Source: a virus
Length of the DNA stretch: 62,690 bases
Virus record (IMG/VR): IMGVR_UViG_3300009156_000005
Location: 1 to 62,690 of that record
Strand: one strand, 5' to 3'
A model generated the notes under the pieces. That model was not told the DNA's origin, searched no databases, and saw only the letters and a list, made by a program, of their open reading frames with translations. This document shows, piece after piece, positions 7,932 through 46,200 of this stretch. Positions within the stretch are counted from its first letter, which is position 1. Each line of letters starts with the position of its first letter. A program made the translations under genes and the position numbers.

Positions 7932-8963
7932 CTAAATGTCGGGTTGGGCATTTAGGGGGCGGAAGTTGTTGCGATTGGGCGGCGGAGGGGGTTCGGGGAC
8001 GGTGATAGGTTCGACGTGGATATAGGGTTGGTCGGCGGGGTTACGGAGGGGCAAGAAGTTGCGCGCTTGGTTACCGGAGAAGGCCGTTTTTTTGATACGG
8101 ACGGTAGCGGTATAGCTTTCTTTGCTGATCATGAGGCGGTGGAGTTGTTGATTGGAGACATAGGCGTTCCATGCGTGGATGACGAGGCGGGCAAGGAGAT
8201 TGGATTCCACAGGCCGGTTGAGATTTTTATGGATGCGAATGGTACGCGGCAGGAGGTCATGGAGGGCTTTGCGGGGGTCGCCGCGCGGGATGGCGTCATC
8301 TTGGGCGACTTGACGCCAGAAGTCGCGGGCGAGGTCGGGGGCATAGTGAAAGGTAATCAGGGCAACGGAGAAAACGGCAGATTTGTAAAGGAGTCTGCGC
8401 CAGTGTTTATCAATGGGGGAGATAGCGGCGTCGAGGCGATGATATTCGGGTGCCCAGAGGGGGACTTGTTCAAGGAGGACACCGACAGGGAGAAGGTTAT
8501 AGGGTGTTTGGCAACCGAAACAGTCATAGATAAAGCGAAGGGCGGCGGCGATTTCATCGACAGTGCGTTTAGGGACGTGCATTTGTTCAGAGATGTGATA
8601 GGCAACGGCGGTATCGGCAAAGGAGCGTTTTTTTTGAATATCGGTGGTAGCGTAGAGGATTTTGAGGTCATCTTCTGAGCAATTGAAGGTACGGACGATA
8701 GGGAGGGCGACAGGTTTATCGGCAAGGATGATAGCATTGAGGGTATGTTGGCCGTTGATGAGGATGGGTTGATTGTCGGAAGTGTGGGCGATTTGGATGG
8801 CGAAATTGGGCATGAGGCGATCATAGCGGATCTCGGTAGCAAGGAACTGGACGTGATTGGGGCGCAGTGGGCGATTTCTGGTATTAGCGACAAGGAGTTG
8901 TTCAGCCATGCCTGGGGTGATGAGTTCAAAGGTAGCGGTAGGGTTGAGGTACATAGGACGCAA
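7932..8963 (-). CDS. ParB/sulfiredoxin-like N-terminal domain protein (343 aa)
   Basis: NRPLRPNHVQFLATEI...ILINGQHTLNAI follows the pattern of ParB-like nuclease domains. The coding strand is strongly G-poor. Confidence 0.6.
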   Translation of the reverse strand: MRPMYLNPTATFELITPGMAEQLLVANTRNRPLRPNHVQFLATEIRYDRLMPNFAIQIAHTSDNQPILINGQHTLNAIILADKPVALPIVRTFNCSEDDLKILYATTDIQKKRSFADTAVAYHISEQMHVPKRTVDEIAAALRFIYDCFGCQTPYNLLPVGVLLEQVPLWAPEYHRLDAAISPIDKHWRRLLYKSAVFSVALITFHYAPDLARDFWRQVAQDDAIPRGDPRKALHDLLPRTIRIHKNLNRPVESNLLARLVIHAWNAYVSNQQLHRLMISKESYTATVRIKKTAFSGNQARNFLPLRNPADQPYIHVEPITVPEPPPPPNRNNFRPLNAQPDI

Positions 8964-9150
8964 ACGCTTTCTGCGCCAGTTTTAGCGCGACAAGTTTGGG
9001 GGGTAGATTGACAGGGAACAGAAAAGGGTTTACGTTGAGGAAGTAGGCAGTACCCATTTTCTCAAAGCTCAGGGGTAGCACCCCCTGGGCTTTGTTGTTC
9101 TTGGGGAGATGATCGCGCCAAAGATAAAAAAAATCAAGGGGTTTGCAGAC

Positions 9151-9474
9151 TTATGTCAATTCGCTGCTGTCTGGAGGGGGACGGCGGTGTTCGATGGGGT
9201 AGTTATAGCCATGCGGGTGGAGGGTATTGAAGTAGGAGATCCAGTAATCGAGGCGTGGGCCGAAGTGGATAGAGTCGGGGAGGGTTTCGATGAGGGTAAA
9301 GAGGGTATTTTGGATGCCGTAGCGGAGGATGTCGGATAGGAGGGTATCGTTTTGATGGAGACCGAAGCGGCGGGCATCGGTAGCGGCGCGGTGGCGGATA
9401 CGGGAGAGTTTGGCGGTGGAAGCGCCGATGAAGGATTTGCCGGTGGCTTTGCAGTAGGCTTTATAGATGATCAT
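9151..9474 (-). CDS. GIY-YIG domain nuclease (107 aa, catalytic domain only)
   Basis: IIYKAYCKATGKSFIG (GIY..YIG spacing), RIRHR, LIETL, and HPHGYN. Confidence 0.6.
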   Translation of the reverse strand: MIIYKAYCKATGKSFIGASTAKLSRIRHRAATDARRFGLHQNDTLLSDILRYGIQNTLFTLIETLPDSIHFGPRLDYWISYFNTLHPHGYNYPIEHRRPPPDSSELT

Positions 9475-9492
9475 AGGTTTATTAAAGCAAGT

Positions 9493-9735
9493 TTAGGGGT
9501 AGCGGGTTTTGGGCGGCACGTCTAGGAGCGTTGGTTGGGCTGGGATGGCAGGTTCGCAGTGTGGTTTGAGGGCATCTTTGAGTTCGGCCAGGATCGATTT
9601 AAGGCGGTCGATTTCAGCGAGTTTGGCGGCGAGTTTGGGGGGGTTATCACGAAAGACGTATTGGCGTGCGGAGCGTTCTTTGTTGGCGATTTTGACGGCT
9701 TCGGTATAGAGGGTTTGGAGATGGTCAATATTCAT
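9493..9735 (-). CDS. Hypothetical coiled-coil protein (80 aa)
   Basis: The ATG at 9735 (MNIDHLQTLY) is preferred because the longer form would run into the 9769-9809 hairpin. Confidence 0.5.
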   Translation of the reverse strand: MNIDHLQTLYTEAVKIANKERSARQYVFRDNPPKLAAKLAEIDRLKSILAELKDALKPHCEPAIPAQPTLLDVPPKTRYP

Positions 9736-9768
9736 AAGGGTAAATATAGCATGATAAGGTGGGGCGAT

Positions 9769-9809
9769 CAAGAGCGATGGGGTACGAGGCCATCGCTCTT
9801 GGTCTTTTT
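9769..9809 (+). terminator. Strong plus-oriented intrinsic terminator inside a minus-strand gene block
   Basis: 12-bp stem CAAGAGCGATGG / CCATCGCTCTTG with a 9-nt loop, followed by gtcTTTTTg. There is no A-run on the other side. Confidence 0.7.
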
Positions 9810-9817
9810 GTGTAAGG

Positions 9818-11195
9818 GGCGGTTGCTGAGATGTGCAGTGACTCGCTAAGCAGAACAGTGACTCGCTGTGCCGTTGCGGGGCGCGGCTTTACTTTTCCTT
9901 TGCCAAGCGGAGGCTCGCTATGCCGTTGCACCGAGATGCGGAGAGCCGCGCTGCTATGCCATCGCGTAGGAACGGCTCGCAGTGGTACGCCGTTGCGTGG
10001 GTACGAGGTACGTAGCTCCGCCGTTGCGTCGTCATGCGTCGAACTGATGTGCCTTAGCCAAGCTAGGCGTAGGTGCGGATTGGTCTGCCGTGGCGGTGTA
10101 GTGCAAGGATTGGCCTTGCCGTTACCGAGACAAGAGCAATGGTACGGATTGCTTTGCCGATGCTTTGGAGGGCCACGTTATGCCGTGGCATTGACTGGCT
10201 CTGGATAGGTGCGCCATTGCTGCGGGCTGCGTTGTAGGGTTTTGCGTAGCCGTTGCTGGGCGGTGTACTGTTGAGGTAAGCTCTGCCTTCGCCACGCGCG
10301 GGGTTGCTCAACTGCGCCGTTGCTGTGTACAGGACTGGTGCGCAATGCCGTCGCATTGGTAGGCTAAGGGTTACGTCGCCGCTGCGCCGAGCCGTTGAGT
10401 GCCTTGACTTGCCTTTGCGTGGATTAGTATTGGAGCGACTTGCTTTGCCTTTGCTGCGCTACGCTAACTATGACTCGCAAGGCCGTTGGTTCCCAGCGGT
10501 GTGCGTAGCGGTTGCTGGGCGACGATTCGGCTTGCCTTGCCTTTGCTGAGAAGTGCTGCGTCCTGGTGTGCAGTGCCGTTGCCAAGATCAGCTTAGCTTT
10601 TCCATGCCGTTGCCACGATCAGCGTAGACTCGCTTAGCCATTGCTACGAACAGCGTAGGGTTGCTTAGCCGTTGCCCTGATAAGTTGTTAAGGTGCGCGG
10701 TTGCTTTGCGTGTGCGTAGAGTAGAATCAAAGTGTGCTACGCTGACAGCACGTAGATCTACCTTGACGATGCCCTGCTCAACTTCGCTTTTACGGTGTCT
10801 TGCTTTGCACGGCCATGCCGTCGCGGGGCACAGGCGAACTAAGCTCTGCCCTTGCGTTGATACGATATGTACTGCCATGCCTCTGGCTCGCGCTGGTAGG
10901 CCATGCCTTCGCTCGGAAGTGCCAGGCTTCCCTATGCCTTTGCATAGATATGGCTGGCTTAGCTTTCCAGTGCCCTTGCGTAGCGTCGGGCTACCATGCC
11001 GCTGCTGAGATATGGCTGGCTTGCCCTGCCGTTGCCTTGCGTCGTCCCGCCTTGCCGTTGCGATGGCAAGCATAGAGGTGATGAGCTAAGCCGTTGCCAC
11101 GGTCGGCTATGGGCTGATTGCCTTGCCACTGCTTCGATTAGCCATGAGACGCCTTTGCTTGGCGATGGTTTGGACAGCTAAGCCTTTGCCATGTT
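9818..11195. repeat. Array of about 43 degenerate same-orientation repeats (modal period 31 bp, core GCCGTTGC, second box GCGTAG)
   Basis: Core start positions include 9989, 10020, 10051, 10087, 10118, 10156, 10182, 10213, 10249, 10285, 10316, 10347, 10378, 10411, 10447, 10482, 10508, 10539, 10575, 10606, 10637, 10668 and 10697. The spacing is mostly 31 bp and otherwise 26-38 bp. Confidence 0.85.
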
Positions 11196-11768
11196 GAAGG
11201 AGAAGCGCCCCCATGATCCGCTGCGCCATTGCCCCATTCCCCTGTACTTGCCATAATCAAAGAGTTCAAAAAGAAGCTCTTGGCTCATGGTTTTGTCATC
11301 GAGGACAAGAAGCTCAAAGTTGAGGGTTGAGCCGGTTGGGATTGTCTCGCTAAAGGCAAGGGCGACACGTTCGCCTTGTGCGGTTTGGGCACGGAGCGGG
11401 CGTTGCAGTTCACCGACGGTGCCGTGCAGGGTAAAGGGGATCAGGCGTGGTTCGACAAAGACCAAGCCGTCGATCACCTTCTTGAAGGCACGCACCTTTT
11501 TGGAGAGGCTATCTTCCATACGGGAGAGCATAGAGCAAGCGTCTTTGAGATAGCCTTTTACCACATAGTCATAAAGCACAGGTGTGCCATCGGGGAGCCG
11601 GTGGAAGCCGGTTTTGCCCTTGTCGTCAATGGTGATGGTTTCCACTTCTTCGATGGCATTGGCCGGAGCGCCGTCTTTACTGGCGATGAAGTCGGTGTAG
11701 ATCTGCTTATTGAGCGGCACTGTCCCTAGAATATCGGTTAGAAAGGTCAGTGTTACATCGTAGCGCAT
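11178..11768 (-). CDS. Hypothetical protein with RAMP (Cas7/Csm3-like) motif order
   Basis: GGAGGA sits 3 nt before the ATG at 11768. Motifs in order: MRYDVTLTFLTDILGTVP; GFHRLPDGTPVLYDYVVKGYLKD; GERVALAFSETIPTGSTLNFELLVLDD; and a C-terminal glycine loop GKYRGMGQWRSGSWGRF. Confidence 0.65.
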   Translation of the reverse strand: MRYDVTLTFLTDILGTVPLNKQIYTDFIASKDGAPANAIEEVETITIDDKGKTGFHRLPDGTPVLYDYVVKGYLKDACSMLSRMEDSLSKKVRAFKKVIDGLVFVEPRLIPFTLHGTVGELQRPLRAQTAQGERVALAFSETIPTGSTLNFELLVLDDKTMSQELLFELFDYGKYRGMGQWRSGSWGRFSFNMAKA

Positions 11769-11838
11769 CAGTCCTCCAGAAATTATCATGGTAAGTTTGA
11801 GAGTAAGTGGGGGTGTTACTGGCTTGGGTATTTGATGA

Positions 11839-12027
11839 TTATTTCATGCTGGTTATCTCCTTCCGCGCCTCAGTTGTGCGGTGGTCGGGGCAATAGTGCT
11901 TCTTGGAGCCGATTTGCCAGTTGTCCATGCGGGCGAACATGATGAGGCGGCTGCGGTTGTGGGTGAAACTGACATAGCGTTTTTCGCAACCTGGCTGGTC
12001 GCACTTGATGGTAAGGTAGATGCTCAC
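11839..12027 (-). CDS. Small zinc-ribbon-like protein (62 aa)
   Basis: CDQPGC...YCPDH cysteine/histidine pairs. The gene is tightly packed in the operon. Confidence 0.5.
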   Translation of the reverse strand: MSIYLTIKCDQPGCEKRYVSFTHNRSRLIMFARMDNWQIGSKKHYCPDHRTTEARKEITSMK

Positions 12028-13562: not shown

Positions 13563-13892
13563 ATGATGCCTTTACGAAGTCACAAGCTCGGTTCAGATGA
13601 AGTACGCCGCCAATGGCGTGATGTGTTGGATGAGGTGCAAGCCGGTGAGAGTGTGATCGTCTCGCGTGCTGGTAAGCGGGTTGCGGTCATCATTCCCTTT
13701 GAGTTATGGGATCTGGCAAAAGACCAACTCGAAAACTTGGATGACACGCTTGACCTGCGCAAAAAGATTGACGCATACCGCCGTGCTGTGGCGGCGGGTC
13801 TTGAGGAACGTGATCCAACTTGGGATCGACTGGCTGACGAAGAAGTCGCGGCTGGGTACTTGGCTCCCTTAGAAGAAAAGGAAGCCGCGTGA
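13563..13892 (+). CDS. Phd/YefM-family antitoxin
   Basis: SDEVRRQWRDVLDEVQAGESVIVSRAGKRVAVIIPFELW matches the family pattern. The gene overlaps the toxin gene by 4 nt. Confidence 0.7.
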   Translation: MMPLRSHKLGSDEVRRQWRDVLDEVQAGESVIVSRAGKRVAVIIPFELWDLAKDQLENLDDTLDLRKKIDAYRRAVAAGLEERDPTWDRLADEEVAAGYLAPLEEKEAA

Positions 13893-14155
13893 GCCAACCC
13901 TACCGTGTGACCTATGCGCCCGCCGCCGCCAAATTTATCGAGAAAAAAGCGCCCAATCACATGCGGGGACGGTTGAAAGCGGCTTGTGAGTCGCTTGGGC
14001 GAGAACCACGCCCCTATGGTTGCGAAAAGATGTCTGGTTATGACAACCGCTGGCGTATTCGCGAAGGCGACTATCGGATCGTCTATGAAATTTACGATAA
14101 AGAGTTGCACGTCCACATCATTGACACAGACCATCGCAAGGACATATACCGCTAA
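13889..14155 (+). CDS. RelE/ParE-family toxin
   Basis: WRIREGDYRIVYEIYDKELHVHIIDTDHRKDIY is the canonical RelE/ParE C-terminal pattern. Confidence 0.85.
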   Translation: MSQPYRVTYAPAAAKFIEKKAPNHMRGRLKAACESLGREPRPYGCEKMSGYDNRWRIREGDYRIVYEIYDKELHVHIIDTDHRKDIYR

Positions 14156-23593: not shown

Positions 23594-24223
23594 ATGGCCC
23601 GCCGTCGCAATGGCTTTCAACCCGCCACCCCCTACCCCGATGAGGATGAGCCGGAGATCGAGATCGACGCACCTTCCATCGAGCGCCAGGATGTCTATGA
23701 ATTGCCGCAGACCGACCTGCGCATTGACGCCAACAGCGTCACCATCACCCGCCTGGTTTTAACGCCTGAGCTTGTCGCCGTCGCCATCTATGAAGCGCGC
23801 GGGATGCTCAGCATTGCCGCCCGCAAACTTGGCACAACGGCGCGCACCGTCAAGGGCTTTGTAGACCGCGAAGAGTTATGTCGAGTGGCCTACGAAGAAG
23901 CCGACGAAATGCTGCTTGATTTTGTCGAGGCAAAGCTATACCAAAAGATTAAAGCCGGAGATATAGCCAGCATTATTTTTTACCTGCGCACCAAAGGCAA
24001 GCGCCGCGGTTATACCGAAAAGCTCAAGGACAACGACGAGAGCGATCCGGCCAACAAGCGTGCGCAATTGCAGGAATCAGAGGATAAGCAACGCGAGCTT
24101 GAAATGCGGCTGCAAGACATCAGCGGTCGCCTGGTCTGGACAATGCCAGGTGATGAAGATGAACCACAGCCAGCCTCACAAATAGACCTAGAGCCTGATG
24201 AGTACACAAGCACCGACGAGTGA
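23594..24223 (+). CDS. terS: Terminase small subunit
   Basis: HTH-like region IAARKLGTTARTVKGFV plus FYLRTKGKRRGY. It lies immediately upstream of, and overlaps, the large subunit gene. Confidence 0.6.
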   Translation: MARRRNGFQPATPYPDEDEPEIEIDAPSIERQDVYELPQTDLRIDANSVTITRLVLTPELVAVAIYEARGMLSIAARKLGTTARTVKGFVDREELCRVAYEEADEMLLDFVEAKLYQKIKAGDIASIIFYLRTKGKRRGYTEKLKDNDESDPANKRAQLQESEDKQRELEMRLQDISGRLVWTMPGDEDEPQPASQIDLEPDEYTSTDE

Positions 24224-25595
24224 AAGCATCCTCAACGAGCGGCTAAGGCAAGTCTTACCGCGCCAGGCGCACCCGATGAGCCTGGCCGAAAAGATTGCCA
24301 TGCTTGACGTGGAGCAACGCACCAAGATGCTCTATGAGATTGCGCCGACCGCCGAAGATATGGAGCGGTTGCTGTACACCTGGGCATTTTGGGCAAGGCC
24401 CAACCAGTTGGAGCCACAAGGCGCTTGGCAGACGTGGGCTGTCTTTTCCGGTCGTGGCTTTGGCAAGACAAGACTAGGGGCGGAAGCCTGTATCAAGCGG
24501 GCGCGGCATGGCCCCTTTTACCCGATTGCATTGGTCGGCCAAAGCAAAGGCGATGTGCGCGACACGATGGTCGAAGTCTTTGAGTCGAGCATCATCAAGA
24601 TCTCAAGCCCTGCCTTCATGCCCAAGCTGGAGACCAGCAAGCGGCGCGTGACCTGGCCCAACGGCATGATCGCCATTATGTACAGCGGCGATGAGCCAGA
24701 TCAGCTAAGAGGCCCGCAGCATGGCTTTGGTTGGCTGGATGAGTTAGCAAAATTCCAGTATCCGGATATTACTTGGGCAAATTTCAGCCTGGGGCTACGG
24801 CTTGGCCCGACCCCGCAAAGCATTATCACGACAACGCCAAGACCGATACCCATTATTAAAAAGCTCTTTGAAGATCAGCGCGTCACCAAGACCTTTGGCT
24901 CGACTTATGACAATGCCAGCAACTTACCGGCGACCTTTTTGGAAGAAATGCTGATCAGGTATGAAGGCACCAGGCTGGGCGGTCAAGAGTTGCACGGCAA
25001 GCTGATGGGCGATGTCGAAGGGGCGCTCTGGTCACGCGGCACACTCGACAAGCACAGGGTACTCAAGCTACCCCATATTGTGCGCATGATTATCGCAGTA
25101 GACCCAAGCGCCGGTGGCAACGGCGACTATGCCTCCGAGACCGGCATCATTGCGGCGGGCTTGGGCGATGACGGTCACGCCTATGTCTTGCAGGATTGCA
25201 CGGTCAATACCAACAAGCCGGAAGTGTGGGGAGCCGAAGTTGTCGCCGCCTATCACCGCTATGCCGCCGACTGTGTAGTCGCTGAGACCAACATGGGCGG
25301 TGAGATGGTGCGCTACACCTTGCAGACCATCGACCCCAATATGCCGGTCACCAAAGTCACGGCGTCACGCAACAAGCAAACCCGCGCCGAGCCGGTCTCC
25401 AGTCTGTACAGTCAAGGCAAGGTGCATCACTTGGGGCTGATGCCCAATCTCGAAGATGAGCTTTGTTCGTGGGTGCCTGGCGATGCCAGTCCGGATAGGT
25501 TGGATGCCTGTGTGTGGGCAATTACTGAACTTATCCTGAAAAACTCAAACAGCATGAGCCTGAATGAGCTTGCCGGTCTTTTCCAGTGGATCTAG
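24198..25595 (+). CDS. terL: Terminase large subunit
   Basis: Walker A-like FSGRGFGKT, Walker B GFGWLDE, and C-terminal nuclease-like IIAVDPS...VVAETN. Confidence 0.85.
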   Translation: MSTQAPTSESILNERLRQVLPRQAHPMSLAEKIAMLDVEQRTKMLYEIAPTAEDMERLLYTWAFWARPNQLEPQGAWQTWAVFSGRGFGKTRLGAEACIKRARHGPFYPIALVGQSKGDVRDTMVEVFESSIIKISSPAFMPKLETSKRRVTWPNGMIAIMYSGDEPDQLRGPQHGFGWLDELAKFQYPDITWANFSLGLRLGPTPQSIITTTPRPIPIIKKLFEDQRVTKTFGSTYDNASNLPATFLEEMLIRYEGTRLGGQELHGKLMGDVEGALWSRGTLDKHRVLKLPHIVRMIIAVDPSAGGNGDYASETGIIAAGLGDDGHAYVLQDCTVNTNKPEVWGAEVVAAYHRYAADCVVAETNMGGEMVRYTLQTIDPNMPVTKVTASRNKQTRAEPVSSLYSQGKVHHLGLMPNLEDELCSWVPGDASPDRLDACVWAITELILKNSNSMSLNELAGLFQWI

Positions 25596-27280: not shown

Positions 27281-28069
27281 ATGCTAACCGAACAGGAAAT
27301 TGAAGAGTTGATTCAGTTGCTTGTACGGCTCATCCTCGAAGGTTCACTCAGCGAAGATGAAGCGAACGCCATCTTAGATGAAGTTCGCTCCAGCGGGAAG
27401 TTGCCCGAAGGATTCCAGTTACCGCTCCCTTTGGAGTTGGCAATTCCCGAAGAGCTTTCCTCCCTTGTCACCAATTTTCTAACGCTCGAAGTCGGTACGC
27501 ACTACTCCATTGAAGCCGCCCAAACCAACTTTGAAAATCGCATTGATGAGATCACACGAGATCTGATCCGCGGCCAGATTACCCTTAAATCTTGGCAGGA
27601 GAAGTTCATCGACGCTCTCATTGAGTACCTCTCGACCGCAGCGGCGGCGGGAGCGCAGACTGACATCACCGGCACCCCAAGAGAAAATCCCGTTCTAGAA
27701 ATGGTGCGTGTCCAGCTTGCCTATTTGTCGCGCTTTGCCGACTCCTATGGACTTGGCATGATAAGCGCAGGGCAAGCCTTGAACCGTGGCGTGATGTATT
27801 CCGGTCAAGGGCGGGCTTTGTTTTATCAGCAAGAGGGAATATCCAATGCCGATGCCGGATGGGTGATTGATTACATCGCCGTCGATGACCGCTACACCTG
27901 TGAACCCTGTCGCCAGGCCGAAGAGCGCGGGCCTTATTTGCCGGATGATGCGGCGGCTCCGCTGCCAGGAAGTGTCTGCTTGGGCCGTGGCTATTGCCGT
28001 TGTGTGCGGGCGCTCAGATATGACCCGCAGACCTACTTGCGCTTATCAGGCGTAGCAGTTACAGCCTAG
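27281..28069 (+). CDS. Head morphogenesis protein (Mu F / SPP1 gp7-like)
   Basis: DDRYTCEPCRQAEERGPY...GYCRC is the signature at the C-terminus. Confidence 0.65.
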   Translation: MLTEQEIEELIQLLVRLILEGSLSEDEANAILDEVRSSGKLPEGFQLPLPLELAIPEELSSLVTNFLTLEVGTHYSIEAAQTNFENRIDEITRDLIRGQITLKSWQEKFIDALIEYLSTAAAAGAQTDITGTPRENPVLEMVRVQLAYLSRFADSYGLGMISAGQALNRGVMYSGQGRALFYQQEGISNADAGWVIDYIAVDDRYTCEPCRQAEERGPYLPDDAAAPLPGSVCLGRGYCRCVRALRYDPQTYLRLSGVAVTA

Positions 28070-28130
28070 CAGTTATGGGCTAGCACTTGATATTCCAATC
28101 GAGTTATGTTATGTTGAGGGGAGAACTTCG

Positions 28131-28751
28131 ATGACAACCGCAAGCGATTTACCCGTTACCGACACTGCACAGGATGTGAAAGACGGTGACACAGCCCCAG
28201 GCGCGAAGCCTACCGCTCAGGATTCAGGCGAATCCAAAACCCACGACTACGATAGTTTGCCAGATTGGGCGCAGAAAGAGATCAAGCGCCTCAACAGTGA
28301 AGCACGCGAACGACGGCTCCAGGTCAGAGACCAGGAGAACGCCGCCAAGACGCAGCGCGAGCAATCCCTTGCTGAACAAGAGCAATGGAAAGTGCTGGCT
28401 GACGAGCGCCTCACTGAAATTAGCAAGCTAAAAAGTAGGGCAGAGCAGTTCGATGAGCTTTCCGTACTTTTTGACAAGCAATTTTCAGATGAAGTCAAAG
28501 AGTGGCCGAGTGAACTTTTGGAGATGGCTCCGGCGCAAGAAGCGCCGCTCACCCAAAGGCTGACTTGGTTGGAGAAGGCTCGACCGATGGCTAAGAAGTT
28601 GATGGCAAGCGCGCCAAGCGATACGGGTGCGCCACGTCAACCGGTCGGGGGTAATCGCCGCGGGCCTGAACCGTCCTCGCAATCACTGCGCACCCAATCA
28701 CCCTCACTTGCTGATGTTGGGCCACTCGTAGACGCAAAGAAGAAATTCTAA
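28131..28751 (+). CDS. Scaffolding protein
   Basis: Acidic coiled-coil protein of 206 aa, located between the head morphogenesis and capsid genes. Confidence 0.55.
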   Translation: MTTASDLPVTDTAQDVKDGDTAPGAKPTAQDSGESKTHDYDSLPDWAQKEIKRLNSEARERRLQVRDQENAAKTQREQSLAEQEQWKVLADERLTEISKLKSRAEQFDELSVLFDKQFSDEVKEWPSELLEMAPAQEAPLTQRLTWLEKARPMAKKLMASAPSDTGAPRQPVGGNRRGPEPSSQSLRTQSPSLADVGPLVDAKKKF

Positions 28752-28766
28752 CGTCTAGGAGGTAGC

Positions 28767-29174
28767 ATGGCTACTATTGCTGTACCAACCCCTTCGTTGA
28801 TCAATCCGACCAACGAGATGCCTTTTGTCCACCGTCAATTCTTGCCCGCCGCCACGATTGTGCAAGGGCAACTTTGTATTTGGAACGCCGCTCGCCAGAT
28901 TGTCCCGACCGGTGGCACCGCACCCGCCGCCGGAACCCAACTCGCCGGTGTTGCCCTACGCAGCGACCGCTTAGGTGGTCAACCGATCACCCTGCTGCAA
29001 CAGGGCTTCCTGTGGGGCTATGACATGACCGGTCGTGCTTTGTACGACAAGATTGGGGCCGGTATCAACGGTCTGTTGGACACGGCGGGCACGGTGATTA
29101 TCGGCATGGTCTTGCCCTTCGGTGCAGGTGGCGAACTCGCCGTCTGGATCGATGTGACAGTCACCTGGCGCTAA
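28767..29174 (+). CDS. Head decoration / DUF2190-like protein
   Basis: AGGAGG RBS. 135-aa Gly/Ala-rich beta-type protein located just before the capsid gene. Confidence 0.5.
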   Translation: MATIAVPTPSLINPTNEMPFVHRQFLPAATIVQGQLCIWNAARQIVPTGGTAPAAGTQLAGVALRSDRLGGQPITLLQQGFLWGYDMTGRALYDKIGAGINGLLDTAGTVIIGMVLPFGAGGELAVWIDVTVTWR

Positions 29175-40100: not shown

Positions 40101-40226
40101 GATTTTCTAGGCAACAAGCAACCTTTCATCAAGCACCTGATGGTGGAGACGGTCAGCCGTACCTTGCAAGATGGCACCTTGCGCTTGCAACTTGGCTATC
40201 GGGAGATTGATAGGGAGAGTTACTAA
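37104..40226 (+). CDS. Large tail tip / host-specificity protein (1040 aa)
   Basis: Assigned by size and by position after the tape measure and distal tail genes. Confidence 0.55.
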   Translation: MTLNAMTFNAYIGPRHVATDDPTAFGHWSWVQELYDLPAPPLRYMGQMSLTATVGSGNLTITISGGTGIPNGGGLWVGPNAVGEGWEYMPYYKSGAIINVQRTIPEGQNGFHTSGAPVYLWYPLQNNNGVVQYDEELSENTATVTWTAKLSGVAAPASILKPEHLLVVTIATPPYSLAENQHHQYFVGLVERVSMSQDFNMQGTWEIDITSSARLLQVSQVPALRLGPLDVGVQAQATASSSLGANWKLIYPQLEEIKTGARPELDIVELQVDCEPSNITDGNEDTVWVSDGWLGARAAYANTKDKKAWMSLFVVPPPVDFYGCKYIEIINTDNMDNSWLYIFSKWKDTAGVYHKRWFQGGNSDTFAKYGGMDDTTISKPDLRMVIAEDASVFKRIFPAAKPTTLIDASTLVPKDDLGTNIELVRRVWWEGGAIFLRWVLGGSSGRDSLVSWGDVTLTELQDEWAISGTGDFSFPGRDAHIAYGPFDGTKPVILPGQVFRRDLLEGTAVTHAYTVDYVHAPGYQIADQRTDDDPDDHPSVGVEYLIFKLPEMSHFLFEDIALGTTSIRVVDSQQHPNVEGLSLHQTTPGFGSGFIIIDTELIPYTGKDYKTGTLTGCTVNNTHKAGARVYVRWNVNAYGRGNAFNIVAVDADERKPMQGASFRIASCAYPLAGLEWGRGKFRAAPHADRHPYLKNFTWWFSLDEDPPAPTEPFFPNGYLGTLIDSTASGYPHSAAGVPNASIDLTHSHFAEVSGDGFRPKSMMLDMRAMANAAATIITARPMLNYMRCLVDRRYYNPETWLDAGDYGSGYNNEVQIQALMRLSGQDAGFFGTGGSGLFARGARKIGVTEAGNAWQIASDMADYGSSLIRAQRNSVILITQNPFLLSATHTPVKTFTRTEIMSLETVNVRPSEVAQVRLTWEDPNTKVKGMVFYPPTNLMRPGGTIVDVGPMLADDDADAQILCTNLYRMKRFAYNVFVELDLSDVDFEIQCGHIHQVQYDFLGNKQPFIKHLMVETVSRTLQDGTLRLQLGYREIDRESY

Positions 40227-43200
40227 TGGGCCAAGCCCTCAATCGAATTATCAAGCGAACTTTACAGAACGAATACCGGCGGCAAACACAGCGCCGCAGC
40301 GGTGTCGTCAAAGCGGCTGTTGCCGCCGTGGTCAGCGGGCCATCGACGCTCACGCTGGGCGGGCAAGCGACCAGTGCCTTTGCCGTCGATGCGCCGCCAG
40401 GGAGCCTGGTTGCCGTGCAAAACATCGGGCGACCGGCCAATGCCGTCTACGCGCCAGCGCGAGCATCAGCCGTCTTTGCCGTCGGCGGTGCCGGTGGTGG
40501 TAGCGGGGGTGGTGGCGGCGGCGGCGGGCCAACCTATAGCGCCGGTGCCGGTATCGACATCACCAGCACTGTCATTAGCACGAAAAACAAGAGCGCGGGC
40601 GGCATCGCCTCGGACAGCAGCGGCAACTTCTTAATCTTGCCAATCAACTCAGGGCTGATTCTCGATGGCAGCGGTCTAAAGGTAGACCCTGGCGACGGCA
40701 TTGATATTTTGTCCACCGGCGTCTCGGTCGATGTCACCGACCTGATTGATACGACAAAGGGCTTGGGCGAAGATGGGGCCAATAATATTTATGTGAAACT
40801 TTCTAGCAACCCTGGCTTGGAGTTTCGCTCCGGCGGCGGCTTGGCACTGGCGCTTGGCGATGACCTGACCTACGCCACGACCAATGCCACGACAGCCACC
40901 GGCCATACCCATGCCGTGACAAGTTCAGCCGATGTCTCGGTCACGCAAATTGCTACTTTGCTCAGATCCGGCAACAGCGGCGAGCTTGGACTTCGCCAGC
41001 TAACTTTAAGGGGCAACCTAATCTTTCAAGCCGGTGATAGGTCAATCACGGCGACCAACCGCTTGACGATTGCACCGGCTGATGACCTGCAATTGTGGCC
41101 GACGGCGGGCAAGTTAATCACCGTCCGCAATAGCCAAACCACAAAGACCGTCAATGCCCAAGATAACATCGGCGGCATCAGCGGCTTTAACATCTTTGAC
41201 AGCCAGCCACCGGCCAACTACATGCAACTCACGATTGCTAATATCAAGGCCGATAATATCTTCGCACGCAAGTTCACCGCCGATGAAGCCAGAGTTGCCA
41301 GAGGCGAATGGTGGTTGACCCGTTCCTTTGGTGTTGTCGAGACAACGTATGACGCCTTGCCCGCGCCTGGGAGCCAGATGGACATTTGGTTTGAAGAAGC
41401 GCCGCAACTTGGCAACTTCAAGCTCTTTGACCCTGGCAATTGGGCGATGTTTAGAATCATCGACATCGCCCACGGCACCCCTGCGGCGACGATCTATGTA
41501 ACGATTGTCGATGTGCCCCCCAATGGCTATATCGCCAGAGAAGCGCAGACCGCCGACGGCGTTGTGCCGCCACACATGGCGCGCCAAAAGTGGCGCTTGC
41601 TGGTCAAGGCGGGCGGCTTTACCGGCCAACCGATTGCCAAAGGTGAAGTCTTGGCCGACATCGGTTTGCCCGCCAACGGCACGACCGACCTGATCGGGCA
41701 AGGCAGCATCTACATGAACGCTTTGCACGGCAAGGACGAAGGCTCGGAAGGGCCATTTGTCAACGTGCAGACCTTTGACCATGTGACCTCCAACATCCCT
41801 TACTTCAAGAGTCGGGTGCGCATCGGCAACCTGCACAATGTCGTGGACTACACCGATGACATCTTTGGTTTTGCCGCCGGTAATGACCTGTCATCGGTGC
41901 CGACGGCGGGCTTTAGCGGGGCGACGGTCGATACGACGGTGGGCATGAGATTGTTCAACACCGACCTCGCGCTCTATGACGCCGCCGCTAAAGTTGTCAC
42001 GCTAACTCGAAGCGAAGGGCTGACGTTGGTTCAAGACCAGAACATGCTTGACAAAGCGTATGCCTATCTTGGCTGGGTAGACTACTTTGGCGTGGGCAAC
42101 AAGTTGGTCTCCTGGTTGGCGGCGGCGAACGGCGGCACTCCTGGCGACAGCTATTTGCAATTGCAAGCAACGAGCTTCGCTTCGGGCGCAGAAGCCGGTA
42201 TCACGATTGGGGCTAACTCGCCGGATGCCGGTGCCCGCCTCTCGCTCAACACAAGTGGCATCAACGGCGATGTCTTTTTGGTGGCGGGCGGCAATTCTGC
42301 ACACATGCTGCTGGCGGCAACCGAAATCCACATGCAAAAAAAGGTCTTGATCGCAGACCTGAGCGTGACGCCGATAGCACCGCTTCATGTTTACGAAGCG
42401 TCCAACAACATCAATGAGTCGGCGGGCATCCTGATCGACCAGGGCAGTAATGGCGATGCCGTCATTCACTGGCGCATCAATCCTATCGACAAATATTTCA
42501 CCGCCGGTATTGACAATTCCGATGGCCGCAAGTTCAAGATCTCGGCGGGTACTACGCTGGGCGGCTCCAGCGGTCTCAATGACTTTATCACGCTAGACCC
42601 AACGACCGGCACCGTCACCATCAAGGGCTTGACGGTCGGGCCATCGGCTCCCGCCGATCTGGTTGCCGGAAGTGGCATCCAACTGATAGGGCCGACGATT
42701 CAGGTCGATCCATCGGTGGTGCGCACAAGCCGCATCTTGACCGCCGGTGCCGGTCTGACTGGCGGCGGCACCCTGGCGACGACGGTTACCTTTGACATTG
42801 ACCTGGCAAGTCCAGCGGGCTTGACATTGGCGGGCAATGAATTAGCCCTCGCTGAGTCGGTGGCGGGCGTTGGCCTGATCATGGAAAGTAAAGTGCTGCG
42901 CGTAGATCCGGCGCTCTTTACCCGCACAAGCACGCAAGTGATCGTCCATGCGCCGCTCGATGGCGGCGGGCCACTGAGCGACGACATTGATATTTACCTG
43001 CAAATTGCCACTGGCAGCGGCTTGTTTGTGCAGAGCGGCATCAATCCTGGCTTGCGCGTTGACCCCTCGATTGCCGGTACAGGGCTGGAGATGCTGGTTC
43101 CTGGCGTCTTGAGCATTGACCCTGACTATGCAGGGGGCGGCGGCAGCGGCACCGTCGGTGACTTGAATGTGACCGCGCCTATCACCGGTGGCGGGCCAAT

Positions 43201-46200
43201 GAGCGCCGATGTCACTGTCGGTCTAAAACTTCACACGACAAGCCCAGGGCTACAAGTAGATGGCACGAGCGGCGGCTTAAAAGTAGACAGCACAATTGCC
43301 CTCAACACACTGACAGTGGGGGCCGGAAATGGCTTGAGCGGCGGCGGTGCCATCAGCACCAATCCGGTCTTGAACATCGGCGGCGGCACGGCCATTGATG
43401 TCTTTGCCGACAACATTGATGTCAAGCTGGCAGCGACTTCCGGCCTGAACAAAACATCCGGCCTGGCAATCGGCGGCGGCACCGCCATTCAAGTGCTGGC
43501 AAGCAACATTGATGTGCTTCTCGCAGCAAATTCAGGGCTAGTCAAAGGTTCCGGCCTGGCAGTAGACCCGCTCTTGGCGGGCAATGGTTTGCTTCTGACG
43601 GCTGGCAAGATTGATGTGGTGCCCGCCGATACGACCTTGACGGTTGCCGCCGACAACATCAAAGTCAACCAGGCGTTTGACTTTAACTGGACAGGCGCAC
43701 AGACGTGGGCGGCGGGCAAGACACAGACCCATAACGGGCCGGTCATCTTCAACCAAGACAGCACTTTCAACACCGGCGTCTTTACTTTTAATACCAATCC
43801 CAAGATAGCCGCCAATATCGACTTCATCAATGGGCCGCGCCAGATTACCACACAGGGTACGGATGACCTGGCGCTTGTGCCTGGCGGTTCGGTCACGCTC
43901 AGCCCGAACACCAATGTTGTCTACCCCAAGACGACTTTCCTGACCGACATCGGTGCCTACAACCGCAAGTTCCGCACGCTCTACATTGGCGAGTTGTATG
44001 CCGAAACACTTGTCGCCCAAAAAGTAATGGCGACTGTGGGTGGCAGAGTCATGATTGCGCCAACCAATGTGCTTGTCGCCCAAATCTTAGCCAGTGCCAC
44101 GCCGACAACCACGATTCATGTCAAGTACAACAACTTCCAGAACGGCTCCTACATCATGTTTGAGTCGGCTCCTGGCGGTGCGGCGCAATTTGAAGTGATG
44201 AAAGTCACCAGTGTGGCGGGCGGTGTGGTCGGTGATTACACCTACACGGTCACCCGCGACCAGGATCTCACCGGCGCAAATCAGTGGGAGATAGGCGATG
44301 CCTGTGTCGATTGGGGCTTCGCCGCGGGCCAGGGCTACATTGACCTGACCAGCACGACGACCGCGCTCAACTCGAAGAGCGGGCCAACCATCACCGTCTA
44401 CTCACGCACCAGCACCGCAGCCTGGAACAACATCAAGCCGGTGACGACGATGGGTAACCTGAAAGGTTTTGTCGGCTTTGGCGGCGATGAGTTTGGCTTT
44501 GCGGCGGGCAACGACCTTACGATTAACCCGCTAACCACAAGCGGCTTTTCCGGCTTTAGCATCGACAAGACCAACGGATTGAGGCTCTTTAATACCGACC
44601 TCAACTTCTTCATTGGCACGACCAACTCGATGCTGATCGATGACAGCAGCGGTATCAAGTTTCTCTACCAGACGCTCGGTTCCCCGACCAACAACCCGCT
44701 CTATCAAATCGAATGGGATACCTCACTGACCGCTCCTGACCTGTCGAACCAGTCGCGGCTCAGTGCCTACCGCGCCGGTGTCGATAGCTTCTTCCGCATT
44801 AGTCAAGTGACAACGGCGGGGGCCAGCCTCCTTCATCTCTCCAGCACAGGCTCAAACAACGGCAACGGCGCGCTTGCCCTGCACAACGATTATGTCACCC
44901 TCCAGCATACCAAGTTGGGTGCGCTTGCCCAAATCATCCTCAAGGATAGCCGCGTTTGGATCAGCGATGGTGGACTCAGTGACCCGCCACCTGTGGCGAC
45001 ATCCTCGCTTCATCTTTATCACAACAACGCCTTCACCGGCAGCAATGCGGGCATCACCGTCGAGCAGTTGGGGGGGGGTGACAGCCAGATTCAATTCTTG
45101 CTGACCGGCGTGCGCCGCTGGACAGTGGGTGCCGACAACAGCGACCTCCAGAAGTTTAAGATTGCCAACAATGCCGCGCTTGGCTCCGCTGATGTTTTCA
45201 CGATAGACACAGCGGGCTTTGCGGGCTTTGGCCTCAGTGATCCGTTTACAGAACTTGAAGTGTTGTCCCCAACTAGCAATCTTCATCGTGGCATTTCGGT
45301 GACGCAGGTTGGGTTGACAACTGGCGGCGCGCCGCTGACCTTTTTCAAGGCGCGCGGCACACGCGCGGCAAAAACGGTTGTTGTGACTGGCGACAACTTG
45401 GGAATTGTGCGCGGGTACGGTTGGGATGGCTTGGCCTGGGCGGAGGGGGCGCGCATTGCCTACGTCACCAATGGCACCATCGGCGCGGGCGCGATGCCGA
45501 CCGACATGGTTTTTTCTACGGCGGGTGCCACTGGCGGTATTGTCGAAGAAATGCGCTTGACAGCGGCGGGTAATCTTGGCATCGGCACAGCGGGACCAAG
45601 TGCGCCCTTGCATGTCATGGCGGCTGACCTAACCACCCGCGAGACGCTTGCCAAGTTCATGCTCAACGTCAACACCTCGTCCAACTTGTTCATCTACAAT
45701 GCGACCACGGCGGCAGGGGCGAACATGGCGGCAATCGGCGGCGTCAGTAGCACCACGGCACGCTCCATCCTGGGGATTGATTCCTATACCACGGTGGATA
45801 GCAGCACACAGCCGATGACCCGCTTTAACGCCGTCATCACCGACAATCTAGGCGATCCGGCCAACGGAGTTTTCTCCAGTGTTACGGTGCGCCCACTTTT
45901 CGCTTGGCAAAACAACGGTGCGGCGAGAATGACAATGCTGGCTAGTGGCTTTGTTGGCATCGGCCAGGATGCAACCACGCCCACCAATCCCCTGCATGTC
46001 CGCACCGACCAGAACACCAACACGATTATCGCGGTGGAAAATCAAGACCCTGGGACGGGTGCTGGAGTGGCGTTCTCAGCAACCAATGGCACTAGCTCGA
46101 TGTCGATGCAAAAGCGTGGGGCTAATTATACGGCTGGTGCGCTTGGGGCCAACACTGGCTTCCTCTACAACAGCGGGGCGGGCGACATTGCCATTTACAA

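What the first reader, a model, noticed from the sequence alone, without database searches (positions are those of the whole stretch)
9818..11195. A 1.37-kb array of about 43 degenerate 31-bp repeats with a GCCGTTGC core and no ORF
The core (T/A)GCC(G/T)TTGC recurs in one orientation from about 9820 to 11190. In 24 consecutive measured intervals the spacing was 31 bp eleven times and otherwise 26-38 bp. A second box, GCGTAG, lies about 17-20 nt after the core. The best-preserved units are at 10575-10700 (gccgttgccacgatcagcgtagactcgctta / gccattgctacgaacagcgtagggttgctta / gccgttgccc...).

Because the unit length varies, no reading frame persists, and the listed ORFs are repeat artefacts in three different frames. 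The first unit overlaps the stop codon of the RAMP-like gene at 11178, and the array lies downstream of it on the same transcribed strand.

A period of 31 bp is three helical turns. The array could be a very large phased protein-binding site, analogous to the centromere sopC of F with its 43-bp repeats. It could be a repetitive non-coding RNA. It could also be a cluster of oriented Chi-like octamers. I know of no described phage element of this form.
Basis: seen in the sequence. Interest (0 to 1): 0.85.

Follow-up and report, generated by a model that had tools for sequence, protein, structure and literature searches.

The report
Phage VIPR guide-RNA repeat array
The 1.4-kb repeat tract is real and is almost certainly the guide-RNA array of a phage "VIPR" system: a small Cas7-like protein gene followed by about 270 five-base repeats, a kind of RNA-guided DNA-silencing system first described in 2026 preprints, so it is a striking new example of a known kind.

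Summary
From 9818 to 11195 the core GCCKTTGC recurs only on the + strand, at 26/31/36-bp spacing. The basic period is 5.14-5.17 nt, not 31 bp. On the minus strand, the strand of the neighbouring 196-aa gene, the tract parses into 272 sub-repeats of the form n-G-C-N-N. They group into about 45 units (GGC-NN, then 3-5 nGC-NN, then nGC-AA-M).

The neighbouring protein is a single-RRM RAMP. Its model has pLDDT 91, and its best fold matches are type VII Cas7 and Csm3. Profile comparison shows remote homology to the Vipr protein of phage SUSP1 (hhalign probability 82-89%, E 1e-5 to 2e-6).

Gene and array travel together in 131 of 149 loci whose flanks are otherwise unrelated, and the core orientation is always the gene's. 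The arrays keep the G-C lattice while the NN positions diverge beyond alignment.

This matches VIPR systems (bioRxiv 10.64898/2026.04.26.720920 and .720927). There, one Vipr protomer binds each pentamer and presents NN for gapped pairing with DNA.

This locus differs from characterised type II VIPR. Its units are short (5-7 repeats), it has no 3' tail, its first G is not conserved, no accessory gene was found, and the array is unusually long. Targets were not found. The centromere and Chi readings are rejected.

The parts
11178..11768 (-). vipr-like gene. It encodes a 196-aa single-RRM RAMP (Cas7-like) protein. The mechanical ORF extends to 11789, but the start used by homologues and by public gene calls is the ATG at 11768.
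   Evidence: ORF listed. P0001 is 100% identical over 196 aa. AF2 model: pLDDT 91.2, pTM 0.85. Foldseek best hits are type VII Cas7 and Csm3, E 3e-8, TM about 0.59. HMM match to the type VII Cas7 G-loop region, E 0.004. hhalign against the SUSP1 Vipr family: probability 82-89%, E 1e-5 to 2e-6, full length.
9818..11195 (-). Putative vrRNA array. About 272 sub-repeats (224 of 5 nt, 45 of 6 nt, 2 of 4 nt) of consensus n-G-C-N-N, grouped into about 45 units of 26, 31 or 36 nt: GGC-NN, then (nGC-NN) x3-5, then nGC-AA-M. The first unit overlaps the last codons of the vipr-like gene.
   Evidence: Sub-repeat position 3 is C in 88% and position 2 is G in 58%; positions 1, 4 and 5 carry 0.14 bit or less. 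The same lattice lies next to the gene in 131 of 149 loci. The RNA folds less well than shuffles, z = +1.79.
10575..10700 (-). Best-preserved stretch: four consecutive 31-nt units that are recent tandem duplicates, for example GGCTA AGCGA GTCTA CGCTG ATCGT GGCAAC.
   Evidence: TRF array 10606-10676, period 31, 80% matches. The repeat finder family D2. Parse.
9766..9804 (.). Strong hairpin (12-bp core stem) just beyond the distal end of the array. It probably marks the 3' boundary of the array transcript. It is followed by a T-run on the + strand only.
   Evidence: Inverted repeat I2. Listed as terminator-like on the + strand. Minus-strand RNA fold -21.5 kcal/mol, z = -5.66.
9743..9771 (-). Sigma-70-like promoter match (TTGATC, 17 nt, TATATT, with TG) for the next gene (ATG at 9735). 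It marks the end of the vipr-array unit.
   Evidence: consensus match only. Public gene call maps to 9493-9735.

Best explanation
The tract is the guide-RNA (vrRNA) array of a VIPR system (Viral Interference Programmable Repeat), and the 196-aa gene immediately upstream on the minus strand is its Vipr protein.

Proposed mechanism, with the basis of each step:
1. The array is transcribed as the 3' extension of the vipr mRNA. This is inferred: the first unit overlaps the stop codon, leaving no room for a separate promoter.
2. Vipr protomers polymerise along the RNA, one per pentamer. They clamp the conserved G-C of each sub-repeat and expose the two variable bases. This was shown for phage SUSP1 by cryo-EM. 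It is inferred here from homology and from the lattice.
3. The long transcript is cut or segmented at the conserved junctions nGC-AA-M | GGC-A-W into about 45 short guides of 5-7 protomers. This is inferred, and the staggered arrays mentioned in the preprint are a possible precedent.
4. The exposed NN dinucleotides pair with double-stranded DNA of competing phages or prophages, using the gapped 'xNN' code in which one target base is skipped. The bound filament then blocks transcription. This was shown for type II VIPR and is untested here.
For: Protein:
- High-confidence single-RRM RAMP model with a long beta-hairpin thumb and a C-terminal G-loop.
- Best fold matches are type VII Cas7 and Csm3. 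The G-loop motif matches type VII Cas7 at E 0.004.
- Profile-profile homology to the experimentally characterised SUSP1 Vipr family runs over the full length: probability 82%, E 1.1e-5, and probability 89%, E 2.3e-6 with larger alignments.
- I located the SUSP1 locus and confirmed its YNNGG arrays on both sides of vipr/vap1.

RNA lattice:
- GC dinucleotide period of 5.14-5.17 nt.
- Conserved G2 and C3, variable positions 1, 4 and 5. The preprint lists YNNNG repeats as a variant vrRNA consensus.

Linkage:
- A periodic tract abuts the gene in 80 of 80 IMG/VR loci.
- It is detected in 131 of 149 loci overall, lying downstream, upstream or on both sides.
- No other window protein has a homologue near these genes.
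- Core orientation is 233 forward and 0 reverse relative to the gene.

Guide-like evolution:
- A relative whose vipr is 69% identical at the DNA level has a 1.35-kb array that shares only 34-45-nt repeat-like matches.
- The RNA is selected to be unstructured, z = +1.79.

Protein-RNA co-variation (inference):
- The two SUSP1 residues that read G1 (H17, D177) are T16 and Q here.
- W178 and R179, which hold G2 and Y3, are invariant W and R.
- This matches the loss of G1 conservation and the retention of G2 and C3.

No self-targets appear under the xNN rule, as the preprint reports for VIPR.
Against: - Homology to a proven Vipr is remote: about 19-20% identity, and HMM-to-sequence scores of only 13-18 bits.
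- Units hold only 5-7 pentamers, giving 8-12 variable guide bases, against 9-16 repeats in characterised vrRNAs.
- No conserved structured 3' tail, pseudoknot or hammerhead was found.
- No conserved accessory (vap) gene was found.
- No natural targets were found. Local searches under skip rules 0-3 showed no enrichment over shuffled guides. Two IMG/VR scans with 9-repeat guides from related loci gave 3 and 2 hits, about my own rough estimate of roughly 2 chance hits.
- There are no expression or binding data for this locus.
- The preprint's figures and tables were not available, so I could not place this clade in VIPR types I-VII.
Confidence: 0.8

Rival explanations
1. The locus is a Vipr-related RAMP plus RNA module that does not act as a programmable DNA guide. 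The long pentamer RNA could be a scaffold, decoy or sponge. It might be a filament that sequesters host class 1 CRISPR subunits or the Vipr of a rival phage, or it might autoregulate the vipr mRNA in cis.
For: - Units are very short (5-7 pentamers), which gives little specificity per guide.
- No targets were detected.
- The array is fused to the gene's own 3' end.
- There is no tail and no vap gene.
- Type IV-B Csf2 filaments assemble on non-CRISPR RNA (PMC7937560, listed).
Against: - A scaffold or decoy would not need hypervariable NN positions. Yet NN and n1 carry almost no information while G2 and C3 are kept across 1049 unique units, and arrays of close relatives do not align. That is the signature of diversifying guides.
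- The target searches were too small to count as negative evidence.
Confidence: 0.1
2. The tract is a phased double-stranded DNA binding array, such as a partition centromere like sopC or parS, or an iteron origin. It would be bound by the nearby ParB-like protein (7932-8963) or another DNA-binding protein.
For: - A ParB-like ORF lies 0.9 kb away (PHROG 1033, E 0.0015).
- The mean lattice period of 5.14-5.17 bp is half a B-DNA turn, and the modal unit of 31 bp is three turns.
Against: - Units of 26 and 36 bp (2.5 and 3.5 turns) are common.
- The ParB-like gene and all other neighbours are absent from 148 related loci, whereas the RAMP gene is always there.
- The core is strictly co-oriented with the gene, 233 to 0, including arrays that lie upstream.
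- The sense strand is A-rich and T-poor, with 15% T.
- Binding-site arrays are normally conserved between relatives, whereas this one is hypervariable.
Confidence: 0.04
3. The tract is a cluster of oriented Chi-like octamers (GCCGTTGC) that protects the phage DNA from a RecBCD- or AddAB-type nuclease.
For: The octamer is over-represented and occurs in a single orientation.
Against: - The octamer is degenerate (GCAA[A/C/T/G]GGC across relatives).
- It is embedded in a 5-nt lattice as a unit junction.
- It is conserved across hosts from Chloroflexota to Bacillota, which would not share one Chi sequence.
- It always tracks the RAMP gene rather than the genome ends.
Confidence: 0.01
4. The tract is a decayed or frameshifted protein-coding gene, or a collapsed or misassembled repeat.
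For: Gene callers place ORFs of 96 and 161 aa inside it.
Against: - The sequence is identical in independent assemblies.
- A 5-nt lattice is incompatible with codons.
- The ORFs differ between gene callers and have no Pfam hit.
- Nothing is conserved with the array of a close relative.
Confidence: 0.01

Closest known systems
VIPR systems, type II (Escherichia phage SUSP1, Pseudomonas fulva prophage); bioRxiv 10.64898/2026.04.26.720920 and 10.64898/2026.04.26.720927
   Same: - Phage-borne minimal locus.
- A RAMP protein of about 20 kDa with a single RRM, a thumb and a G-loop (G-x-G-x-W-R...G-R-F).
- Adjacent same-strand tandem pentanucleotide repeats in which conserved scaffold bases alternate with hypervariable bases.
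- Arrays lie downstream and/or upstream of the gene.
- No self-targets.
   Different: - The consensus here is n-G-C-N-N, with G1 free except in the first sub-repeat of each unit. SUSP1 has G-G-Y-N-N.
- Units have 5-7 repeats instead of 9-16.
- No invariant 3' tail or pseudoknot.
- Units abut directly through a conserved junction that adds one base.
- About 45 units in one 1.4-kb tract, against four vrRNAs of about 100 nt in SUSP1.
- No vap gene was recognised.
- Protein identity to SUSP1 Vipr is only about 20%.
VIPR 'staggered arrays with overlapping vrRNAs' and YNNNG-type vrRNAs (mentioned in the same preprint, figs S17-S18; the figures were not available to me)
   Same: - Back-to-back vrRNAs without spacers, where the end of one marks the start of the next.
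- A variant consensus with three variable bases per pentamer.
   Different: I could not verify that the preprint's staggered arrays are this clade, or whether they show the one-base junction and the 5-7-repeat unit size seen here.
Class 1 CRISPR backbone (Cas7/Csm3/type VII Cas7 filament on crRNA) and CRISPR arrays
   Same: - The same protein fold and the same way of gripping RNA, with a periodic thumb.
- An array of short guides transcribed as one precursor.
- A conserved 8-11-nt junction reminiscent of the 8-nt crRNA handle.
   Different: - The period is 5 nt, not 6.
- There are no 25-40-bp repeats alternating with spacers.
- There are no cas1, cas2, cas5, cas6, cas10 or cas11 genes.
- Guide information is interleaved with scaffold bases rather than contiguous.
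Type IV-B Csf complex (Cas7-like Csf2 filament on heterogeneous non-CRISPR RNA; PMC7937560)
   Same: A Cas7-like filament assembled on RNA that is not a CRISPR transcript, carried on a mobile element.
   Different: The type IV-B RNA is heterogeneous, and that system carries Cas11 and other genes. Here a dedicated, sequence-periodic RNA is encoded beside a single gene.
sopC of plasmid F and parS centromere repeat arrays
   Same: Long tandem arrays of short oriented repeats next to a partition-type gene.
   Different: Those are conserved double-stranded DNA sites bound by SopB or ParB. This array is hypervariable, has a 5-nt sub-period, and co-inherits with a RAMP gene rather than with ParB.

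Membership tests
VIPR system | The Vipr protein is a small (about 20 kDa) RAMP with one RRM core, a thumb hairpin and a glycine-rich loop, and no second RRM. | tested here: met
   196 aa. AF2 model pLDDT 91.2, with beta1-alpha-beta-beta-alpha-beta topology, a long hairpin at residues 119-143, and a G-loop at 177-187. Foldseek best hits are type VII Cas7 and Csm3, E 3e-8. The G-loop matches a PDB Cas7 at E 0.004.
VIPR system | Sequence homology to an experimentally characterised Vipr (SUSP1). | tested here: met
   hhalign, family against family: probability 82%, E 1.1e-5, 181 columns; probability 89%, E 2.3e-6, 187 columns. The relationship is remote. tblastn with the window protein did not reach SUSP1, and HMM-to-sequence scores are 13-18 bits.
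VIPR system | Tandem pentanucleotide repeats (GGY/NN or a related consensus such as YNNNG) next to vipr on the same strand. | tested here: met
   Period 5.14-5.17 nt. 224 of 271 steps are exactly 5 nt. G2 and C3 are conserved while n1, N4 and N5 are variable. Orientation is 233 to 0 with the gene. The variant consensus is listed in the preprint's methods.
VIPR system | Hypervariable NN positions between related systems, as expected of programmable guides. | tested here: met
   The array of L154 does not align although its vipr is 69% identical at the DNA level. NN information content is 0.0-0.2 bit across 352 aligned six-sub-repeat units from related loci.
VIPR system | vrRNA of 9-16 repeats capped by a conserved structured 3' tail (type II architecture). 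| tested here: not met
   Units have 4-9 sub-repeats, with a mode of 6. No conserved tail was found. Rfam gives nothing, including no hammerhead. The array RNA is less folded than shuffles. The preprint states that array architecture differs between types, so this excludes type II architecture, not VIPR membership.
VIPR system | An accessory vap gene next to vipr. | tested here: inconclusive
   No window neighbour is conserved beside the gene in 148 loci. Clustering of neighbouring ORFs gives only generic XRE-type HTH genes about 1 kb upstream. The 62-aa zinc-ribbon-like ORF at 11839-12027 has no counterpart in L154. The preprint says loci 'typically' have a vap gene.
VIPR system | Location on a virus or provirus. 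| tested here: met
   The window encodes a large terminase at 24198-25595. More than 589 relatives are on IMG/VR contigs. Relatives in MAGs lie in prophage-like contexts.
VIPR system | vrRNAs are expressed, processed and co-purify with Vipr as a helical filament, one protomer per repeat. | not testable with these tools
   This needs small-RNA sequencing, pull-down or cryo-EM. Only the overlap of the first unit with the stop codon and the terminal hairpin bear on transcription.
VIPR system | Natural targets in competing mobile elements under the one-base-skip (xNN) rule, and none in the element's own genome. | tested here: inconclusive
   No enrichment over shuffled guides in a 1.6-2.7-Mb local database for skips 0-3. 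Two IMG/VR scans gave 3 and 2 hits, about my own rough estimate of roughly 2 chance hits. There are no self-targets in the window: 0 perfect matches, and one-mismatch matches at the shuffle level.
CRISPR-Cas locus | Direct repeats of about 25-40 bp alternating with unique spacers of similar length, plus cas1/cas2 or an effector gene set. | tested here: not met
   The repeat quantum is 5 nt and units are 26-36 nt with no repeat/spacer alternation. Neighbouring ORFs have no Pfam or PADLOC hits.
Partition centromere (sopC/parS type) | A conserved double-stranded DNA repeat array that co-occurs with its cognate ParB/SopB gene. | tested here: not met
   The ParB-like ORF is absent from all related loci that carry the array. 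The array is hypervariable and strictly co-oriented with the RAMP gene.

The most novel reading that the evidence does not exclude
This clade may work differently from the VIPR systems characterised so far. A single transcript of up to 1.4 kb would be coated by about 270 protomers and punctuated every 5-7 protomers by a one-base junction. That spacing is about one turn of the six-subunit SUSP1 filament. The filament would then act either as a battery of about 45 ultra-short guides (8-12 variable bases each) that need cooperative, multi-site recognition, or as a continuous segmented filament whose function is not simple one-guide, one-target silencing. The protein would read only G2-C3, because the G1 pocket has been lost (H17 to T, D177 to Q).
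Probability: 0.15. Interest if true: 0.7.

Novelty: new member of a known kind. Interest (0 to 1): 0.4.

Why it matters
VIPR is a newly described class of RNA-guided DNA recognition that has been proposed to predate CRISPR. Only type II systems have been studied in detail.

This locus belongs to a very large clade. My search found 2778 clusters with E <= 0.001, mostly from gut and anaerobic-environment phages. Its guide architecture differs clearly from type II: short units, a one-base junction, and a free first base with matching changes in the protein pocket.

At about 45 units, this array is one of the largest I saw, alongside the roughly 1.35-kb array of L154. It offers many natural guides from a single phage.

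It is therefore a good test case for several questions:
- How short a VIPR guide can be.
- How arrays are processed without tails or ribozymes.
- How the protein pocket co-evolves with the repeat consensus.

For genome annotation, such tracts should be called as vrRNA arrays. At present they are called as spurious ORFs, as two public gene callers did here.

Tried and rejected
- Known RNA families and tRNAs: nothing at Rfam gathering thresholds for the whole window. Only two chance-level hits at E <= 1 around the array, and no hammerhead. No tRNA or tmRNA.
- DNA similarity of the array to 50,697 phage records: no match.
- Pfam, PHROGs and PADLOC on the RAMP gene and its neighbours: no hit for the RAMP gene.
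- Before finding the preprints I considered several periodic binders. These were TRAP-like or Hfq-like ring binders, Rho YC sites, nucleosome-like DNA wrapping (5.15 bp is half a turn) and a 6-nt Cas7 register. All were dropped once the 5-nt, one-protomer-per-repeat precedent was found.
- Target prediction:
  - Four NN skip rules and three NNN rules were tested on a local database of all fetched loci. An apparent 49 versus 20 excess for skip 1 disappeared after the database was de-duplicated and 3 shuffles per guide were used.
  - Two IMG/VR exact scans with 9-repeat guides from L111 and L048 gave 3 and 2 hits, about my own rough estimate of roughly 2 chance hits, and were not pursued.
  - A self-target scan of the window was negative.
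- Search for a conserved accessory gene: none found.
- Supplementary tables of the VIPR preprint that would list accessions and types were not held. The VIPR type could therefore not be assigned.
Full report

Yes. The core GCCKTTGC occurs 29 times in the window, against 9.5 +/- 3.1 expected. Eighteen of those copies lie between 9870 and 11189, all on the + strand.

Allowing one mismatch gives 35 + strand copies and one - strand copy inside the tract. Of 35 intervals, 11 are 31 bp, five are 36, four are 26 and three are 67. TRF sees only the best 2.3 copies at 10606-10676, because the units are highly degenerate.

The ORFs in the tract are short, overlapping and spread over several frames on both strands. 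Two independent public assemblies contain the identical 1601-bp sequence, so the tract is not a collapsed or chimeric repeat.

**2. The real period is 5 nt.**

The spacings differ in steps of five. The GC-dinucleotide power spectrum of the tract peaks at 5.10-5.20 nt, with a harmonic at 2.57. Flanking genes show nothing comparable.

I read the tract on the minus strand, the strand of both flanking genes. A simple lattice parse splits 9790-11200 into 272 sub-repeats:
- 224 steps of 5 nt, 45 of 6 nt and 2 of 4 nt.
- Position 3 is C in 88% and position 2 is G in 58%.
- Positions 1, 4 and 5 are almost uninformative.

The 6-nt steps define about 45 units. Each unit reads GGC-NN, then three to five nGC-NN, then a hexamer nGC-AA-M. 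These units account for the 26/31/36-bp spacing.

The 'second box' GCGTAG is present in only 8 units and is not a conserved unit position. 'Three helical turns' is therefore a by-product of the pentamer lattice.

**3. The neighbouring gene.**

The ORF at 11178-11789 on the minus strand has its real start at 11768 and encodes 196 aa. It has no Pfam, PHROG or PADLOC hit. It belongs to a large unannotated family of 2778 clusters.

An AlphaFold model built from 33 homologues is confident: pLDDT 91, pTM 0.85. It shows a single RRM-like core, a long beta-hairpin and a C-terminal glycine-rich loop.

Foldseek against the PDB returns backbone subunits of type VII CRISPR (Cas7) and type III (Csm3) as best hits, at E 3e-8 and TM about 0.59. 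A profile search of PDB sequences hits the G-loop region of type VII Cas7 at E 0.004. A 50%-identical viral homologue in BFVD had already been labelled 'Cas system-associated RAMP superfamily protein'.

**4. Gene and array are a mobile two-part module.**

- In 80 of 80 IMG/VR loci retrieved with the protein, a 300-700-bp tract with the same 5.1-5.2-nt GC period starts at the 3' end of the gene.
- 77 of 80 arrays have their best period at 5.1-5.2 nt. The core GCAA[A/C]GGC is found 233 times in the gene's orientation and never in reverse.
- None of 30 other window proteins has a homologue within 6 kb of the gene in those loci.
- In 68 further loci, mostly metagenome-assembled genomes (Chloroflexota, Oscillospiraceae, Lachnospiraceae, Thermodesulfobacteriota and others, down to 30% protein identity), the tract lies downstream, upstream or on both sides, on the gene's strand in the upstream example I read, L146.
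- A locus that the detector missed has a mini-array of about 15 pentamers.
- Overall, 131 of 149 loci have a detectable array, and 1049 unique units share the window's architecture.
- A close relative, L154, has a vipr gene 69% identical at the DNA level and an array of about 1.35 kb. That array cannot be aligned with the window's beyond short repeat-like matches.
- The array RNA is predicted to fold less well than shuffled controls, z = +1.79.

A conserved lattice, hypervariable interleaved bases, single-strandedness and strict co-orientation with a Cas7-like gene all point to a protein-bound guide-like RNA. They do not fit a DNA site or a structured RNA.

**5. What it is.**

Discovery paper (10.64898/2026.04.26.720920):
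- It reports phage-borne loci with a RAMP protein of about 20 kDa (Vipr) and vrRNAs made of 9-16 YNNGG pentanucleotide repeats plus a 3' tail.
- The NN bases pair with double-stranded DNA under a one-base-skip rule.
- Bound complexes silence transcription, and natural targets lie in competing phages.
- There are seven types with variant consensus (NNNGG, YNNNG, NNNNG).
- Array architectures vary: staggered or overlapping, hammerhead-interspersed, or a single vrRNA.

Structure paper (10.64898/2026.04.26.720927):
- One protomer binds each repeat.
- The GGY bases are flipped out and held by H17 and D177 (G1), R138 and W178 (G2), and R179 with helix 1 (Y3).
- NN is presented for gapped pairing inside an R-loop triplex.

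**6. Membership tests.**

I located the SUSP1 locus in NC_028808.2: vipr at 28474-29061, vap1 at 28031-28471, and YNNGG tracts on both sides. I collected its family and compared profiles. The window family and the SUSP1 family align over their full length at probability 82%, E 1.1e-5, rising to probability 89%, E 2.3e-6 with 120-sequence alignments. Sequence-level similarity is weak, at about 20% identity.

The alignment equates SUSP1 G-V-G-D177-W178-R179 with G-M-G-Q-W-R here, and H17 with T16. Both G1-reading residues are replaced, and both replacements are at least 90% conserved in this family. The G2 and Y3 readers W and R are invariant. The repeats here have lost G1 conservation, except in the first sub-repeat of each unit, but they keep G2 and C3. 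This protein-RNA co-variation is an inference, but it fits the published structure well.

Features not met or not settled:
- Units are 5-7 repeats rather than 9-16.
- There is no conserved tail or ribozyme.
- No conserved vap gene was found.
- No targets were found.
- No self-targets were found, as expected for VIPR.
- I could not see the preprint's figures or tables. Whether this clade is one of its seven types, or its 'staggered' architecture, remains open.

**7. Most likely mechanism.**

Confidence is about 0.8 that this is a VIPR-type Vipr plus vrRNA array, and lower, about 0.6, for the full guide mechanism.

1. The array is transcribed as the 3' extension of vipr. The first unit overlaps the last codons and the stop. 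A strong hairpin at 9766-9804 and a promoter-like site for the next gene mark the far end.
2. Vipr coats the RNA, one protomer per pentamer.
3. The conserved junctions delimit or direct processing of about 45 short guides.
4. The exposed NN bases recognise DNA of competitors.

Only the sequence anatomy, the linkage and the homology are shown here. Expression, processing, binding and targeting are inferred from the SUSP1 and P. fulva work.

**8. Rivals.**

- Non-guide RNP (scaffold, decoy or autoregulator). It remains possible, at about 0.1, because the units are so short and no targets were found. The hypervariability of NN argues against it.
- DNA centromere or iteron array, about 0.04. It fails on linkage, orientation and hypervariability, and the ParB-like gene is not part of the conserved module.
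- Chi cluster, about 0.01. The octamer is a lattice junction and is shared across phyla.
- Coding region or assembly artefact, about 0.01. It is excluded by the 5-nt lattice, identical independent assemblies and the lack of conservation.

**9. Novelty and score.**

The class is already described, though only in 2026 preprints, so this is a new member of a known kind. It is noteworthy within that kind for five reasons:
- It has one of the longest arrays I saw, about 272 pentamers in 45 units. Relatives typically have 300-700 bp.
- Its units are short.
- Its units are joined by a one-base junction.
- G1 is unconstrained, with matching changes in the protein pocket.
- No accessory gene is apparent.

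Interest is 0.4.

Noticed in passing
window 13566-14155 (+ strand): A Phd/YefM antitoxin (108 aa) and ParE toxin (88 aa) pair lies on the + strand, opposite to the surrounding minus-strand genes. It was identified from precomputed Pfam hits on the identical public contig. The 184-aa minus-strand ORF at 13580-14134 that I first took as a gene is probably its shadow.
   Followed up: partly
window 9151-9474 (-) and 7932-8963 (-): A GIY-YIG homing-endonuclease-like ORF (PHROG 7168, E 2e-9) and a ParB-like ORF (PHROG 5931, E 8e-23; PHROG 1033, E 0.0015) lie just beyond the array. Neither is conserved next to the gene-array module in relatives.
   Followed up: partly
window 8001-10000: The GC skew is very strong (+0.39 to +0.42 on the + strand), against about 0 to 0.15 elsewhere. 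The region covers the ParB-like gene and the small ORFs left of the array. It is unexplained.
   Followed up: no
window 9766-9804: There is a strong hairpin (-21.5 kcal/mol, z = -5.7). A T-run follows it only on the + strand, so it looks like an intrinsic terminator for + strand (antisense) transcription entering the array. On the minus strand it overlaps the -35 of a promoter-like site for the gene starting at 9735.
   Followed up: partly
window 40226-48082 (+): A single 2618-aa ORF sits in the structural module after 779-aa and 1040-aa ORFs. It is presumably a tail or host-interaction protein. It was not examined.
   Followed up: no
L001-L080 (IMG/VR contigs): Many viral contigs end 1.4-2.4 kb downstream of the vipr-like gene, for example L014 and L022-L029. 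These ends lie beyond the array rather than in it. They could be genome or prophage ends of one gut-phage lineage, or assembly breaks.
   Followed up: no
L093, L096, L141, L086, L099, L123; L145-L148, L107; L100 3830-3910: Array placement varies between relatives. Some loci have tracts on both sides of the gene, and the most divergent (30-36% identity) have them only upstream. L100 has only a mini-array of about 15 pentamers upstream.
   Followed up: partly
L004-L080 and others, about 1 kb upstream of the vipr-like gene: In 86 loci an XRE-type HTH (cI/Cro-like) gene lies about 1 kb upstream. In gut phages the module therefore tends to sit in the early or lysogeny-switch region. In L001 it instead lies directly upstream of a large ORF that I took from its translation to be a terminase (not tested).
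   Followed up: partly
L154 4597-5960 (ENA ERZ25039555 contig_10925, 72.7 kb): The closest long relative (protein 70% identical) also has an array of about 1.35 kb. Very long arrays may therefore be typical of this sub-clade, whose nearest relatives are in Chloroflexota/Anaerolineae MAGs, rather than unique to the window.
   Followed up: partly
BFVD A0A8S5R426 (Siphoviridae sp. ctcMb1): A 50%-identical viral homologue is named 'Cas system-associated RAMP superfamily protein' in UniProt, so at least one member has been recognised as a RAMP.
   Followed up: no
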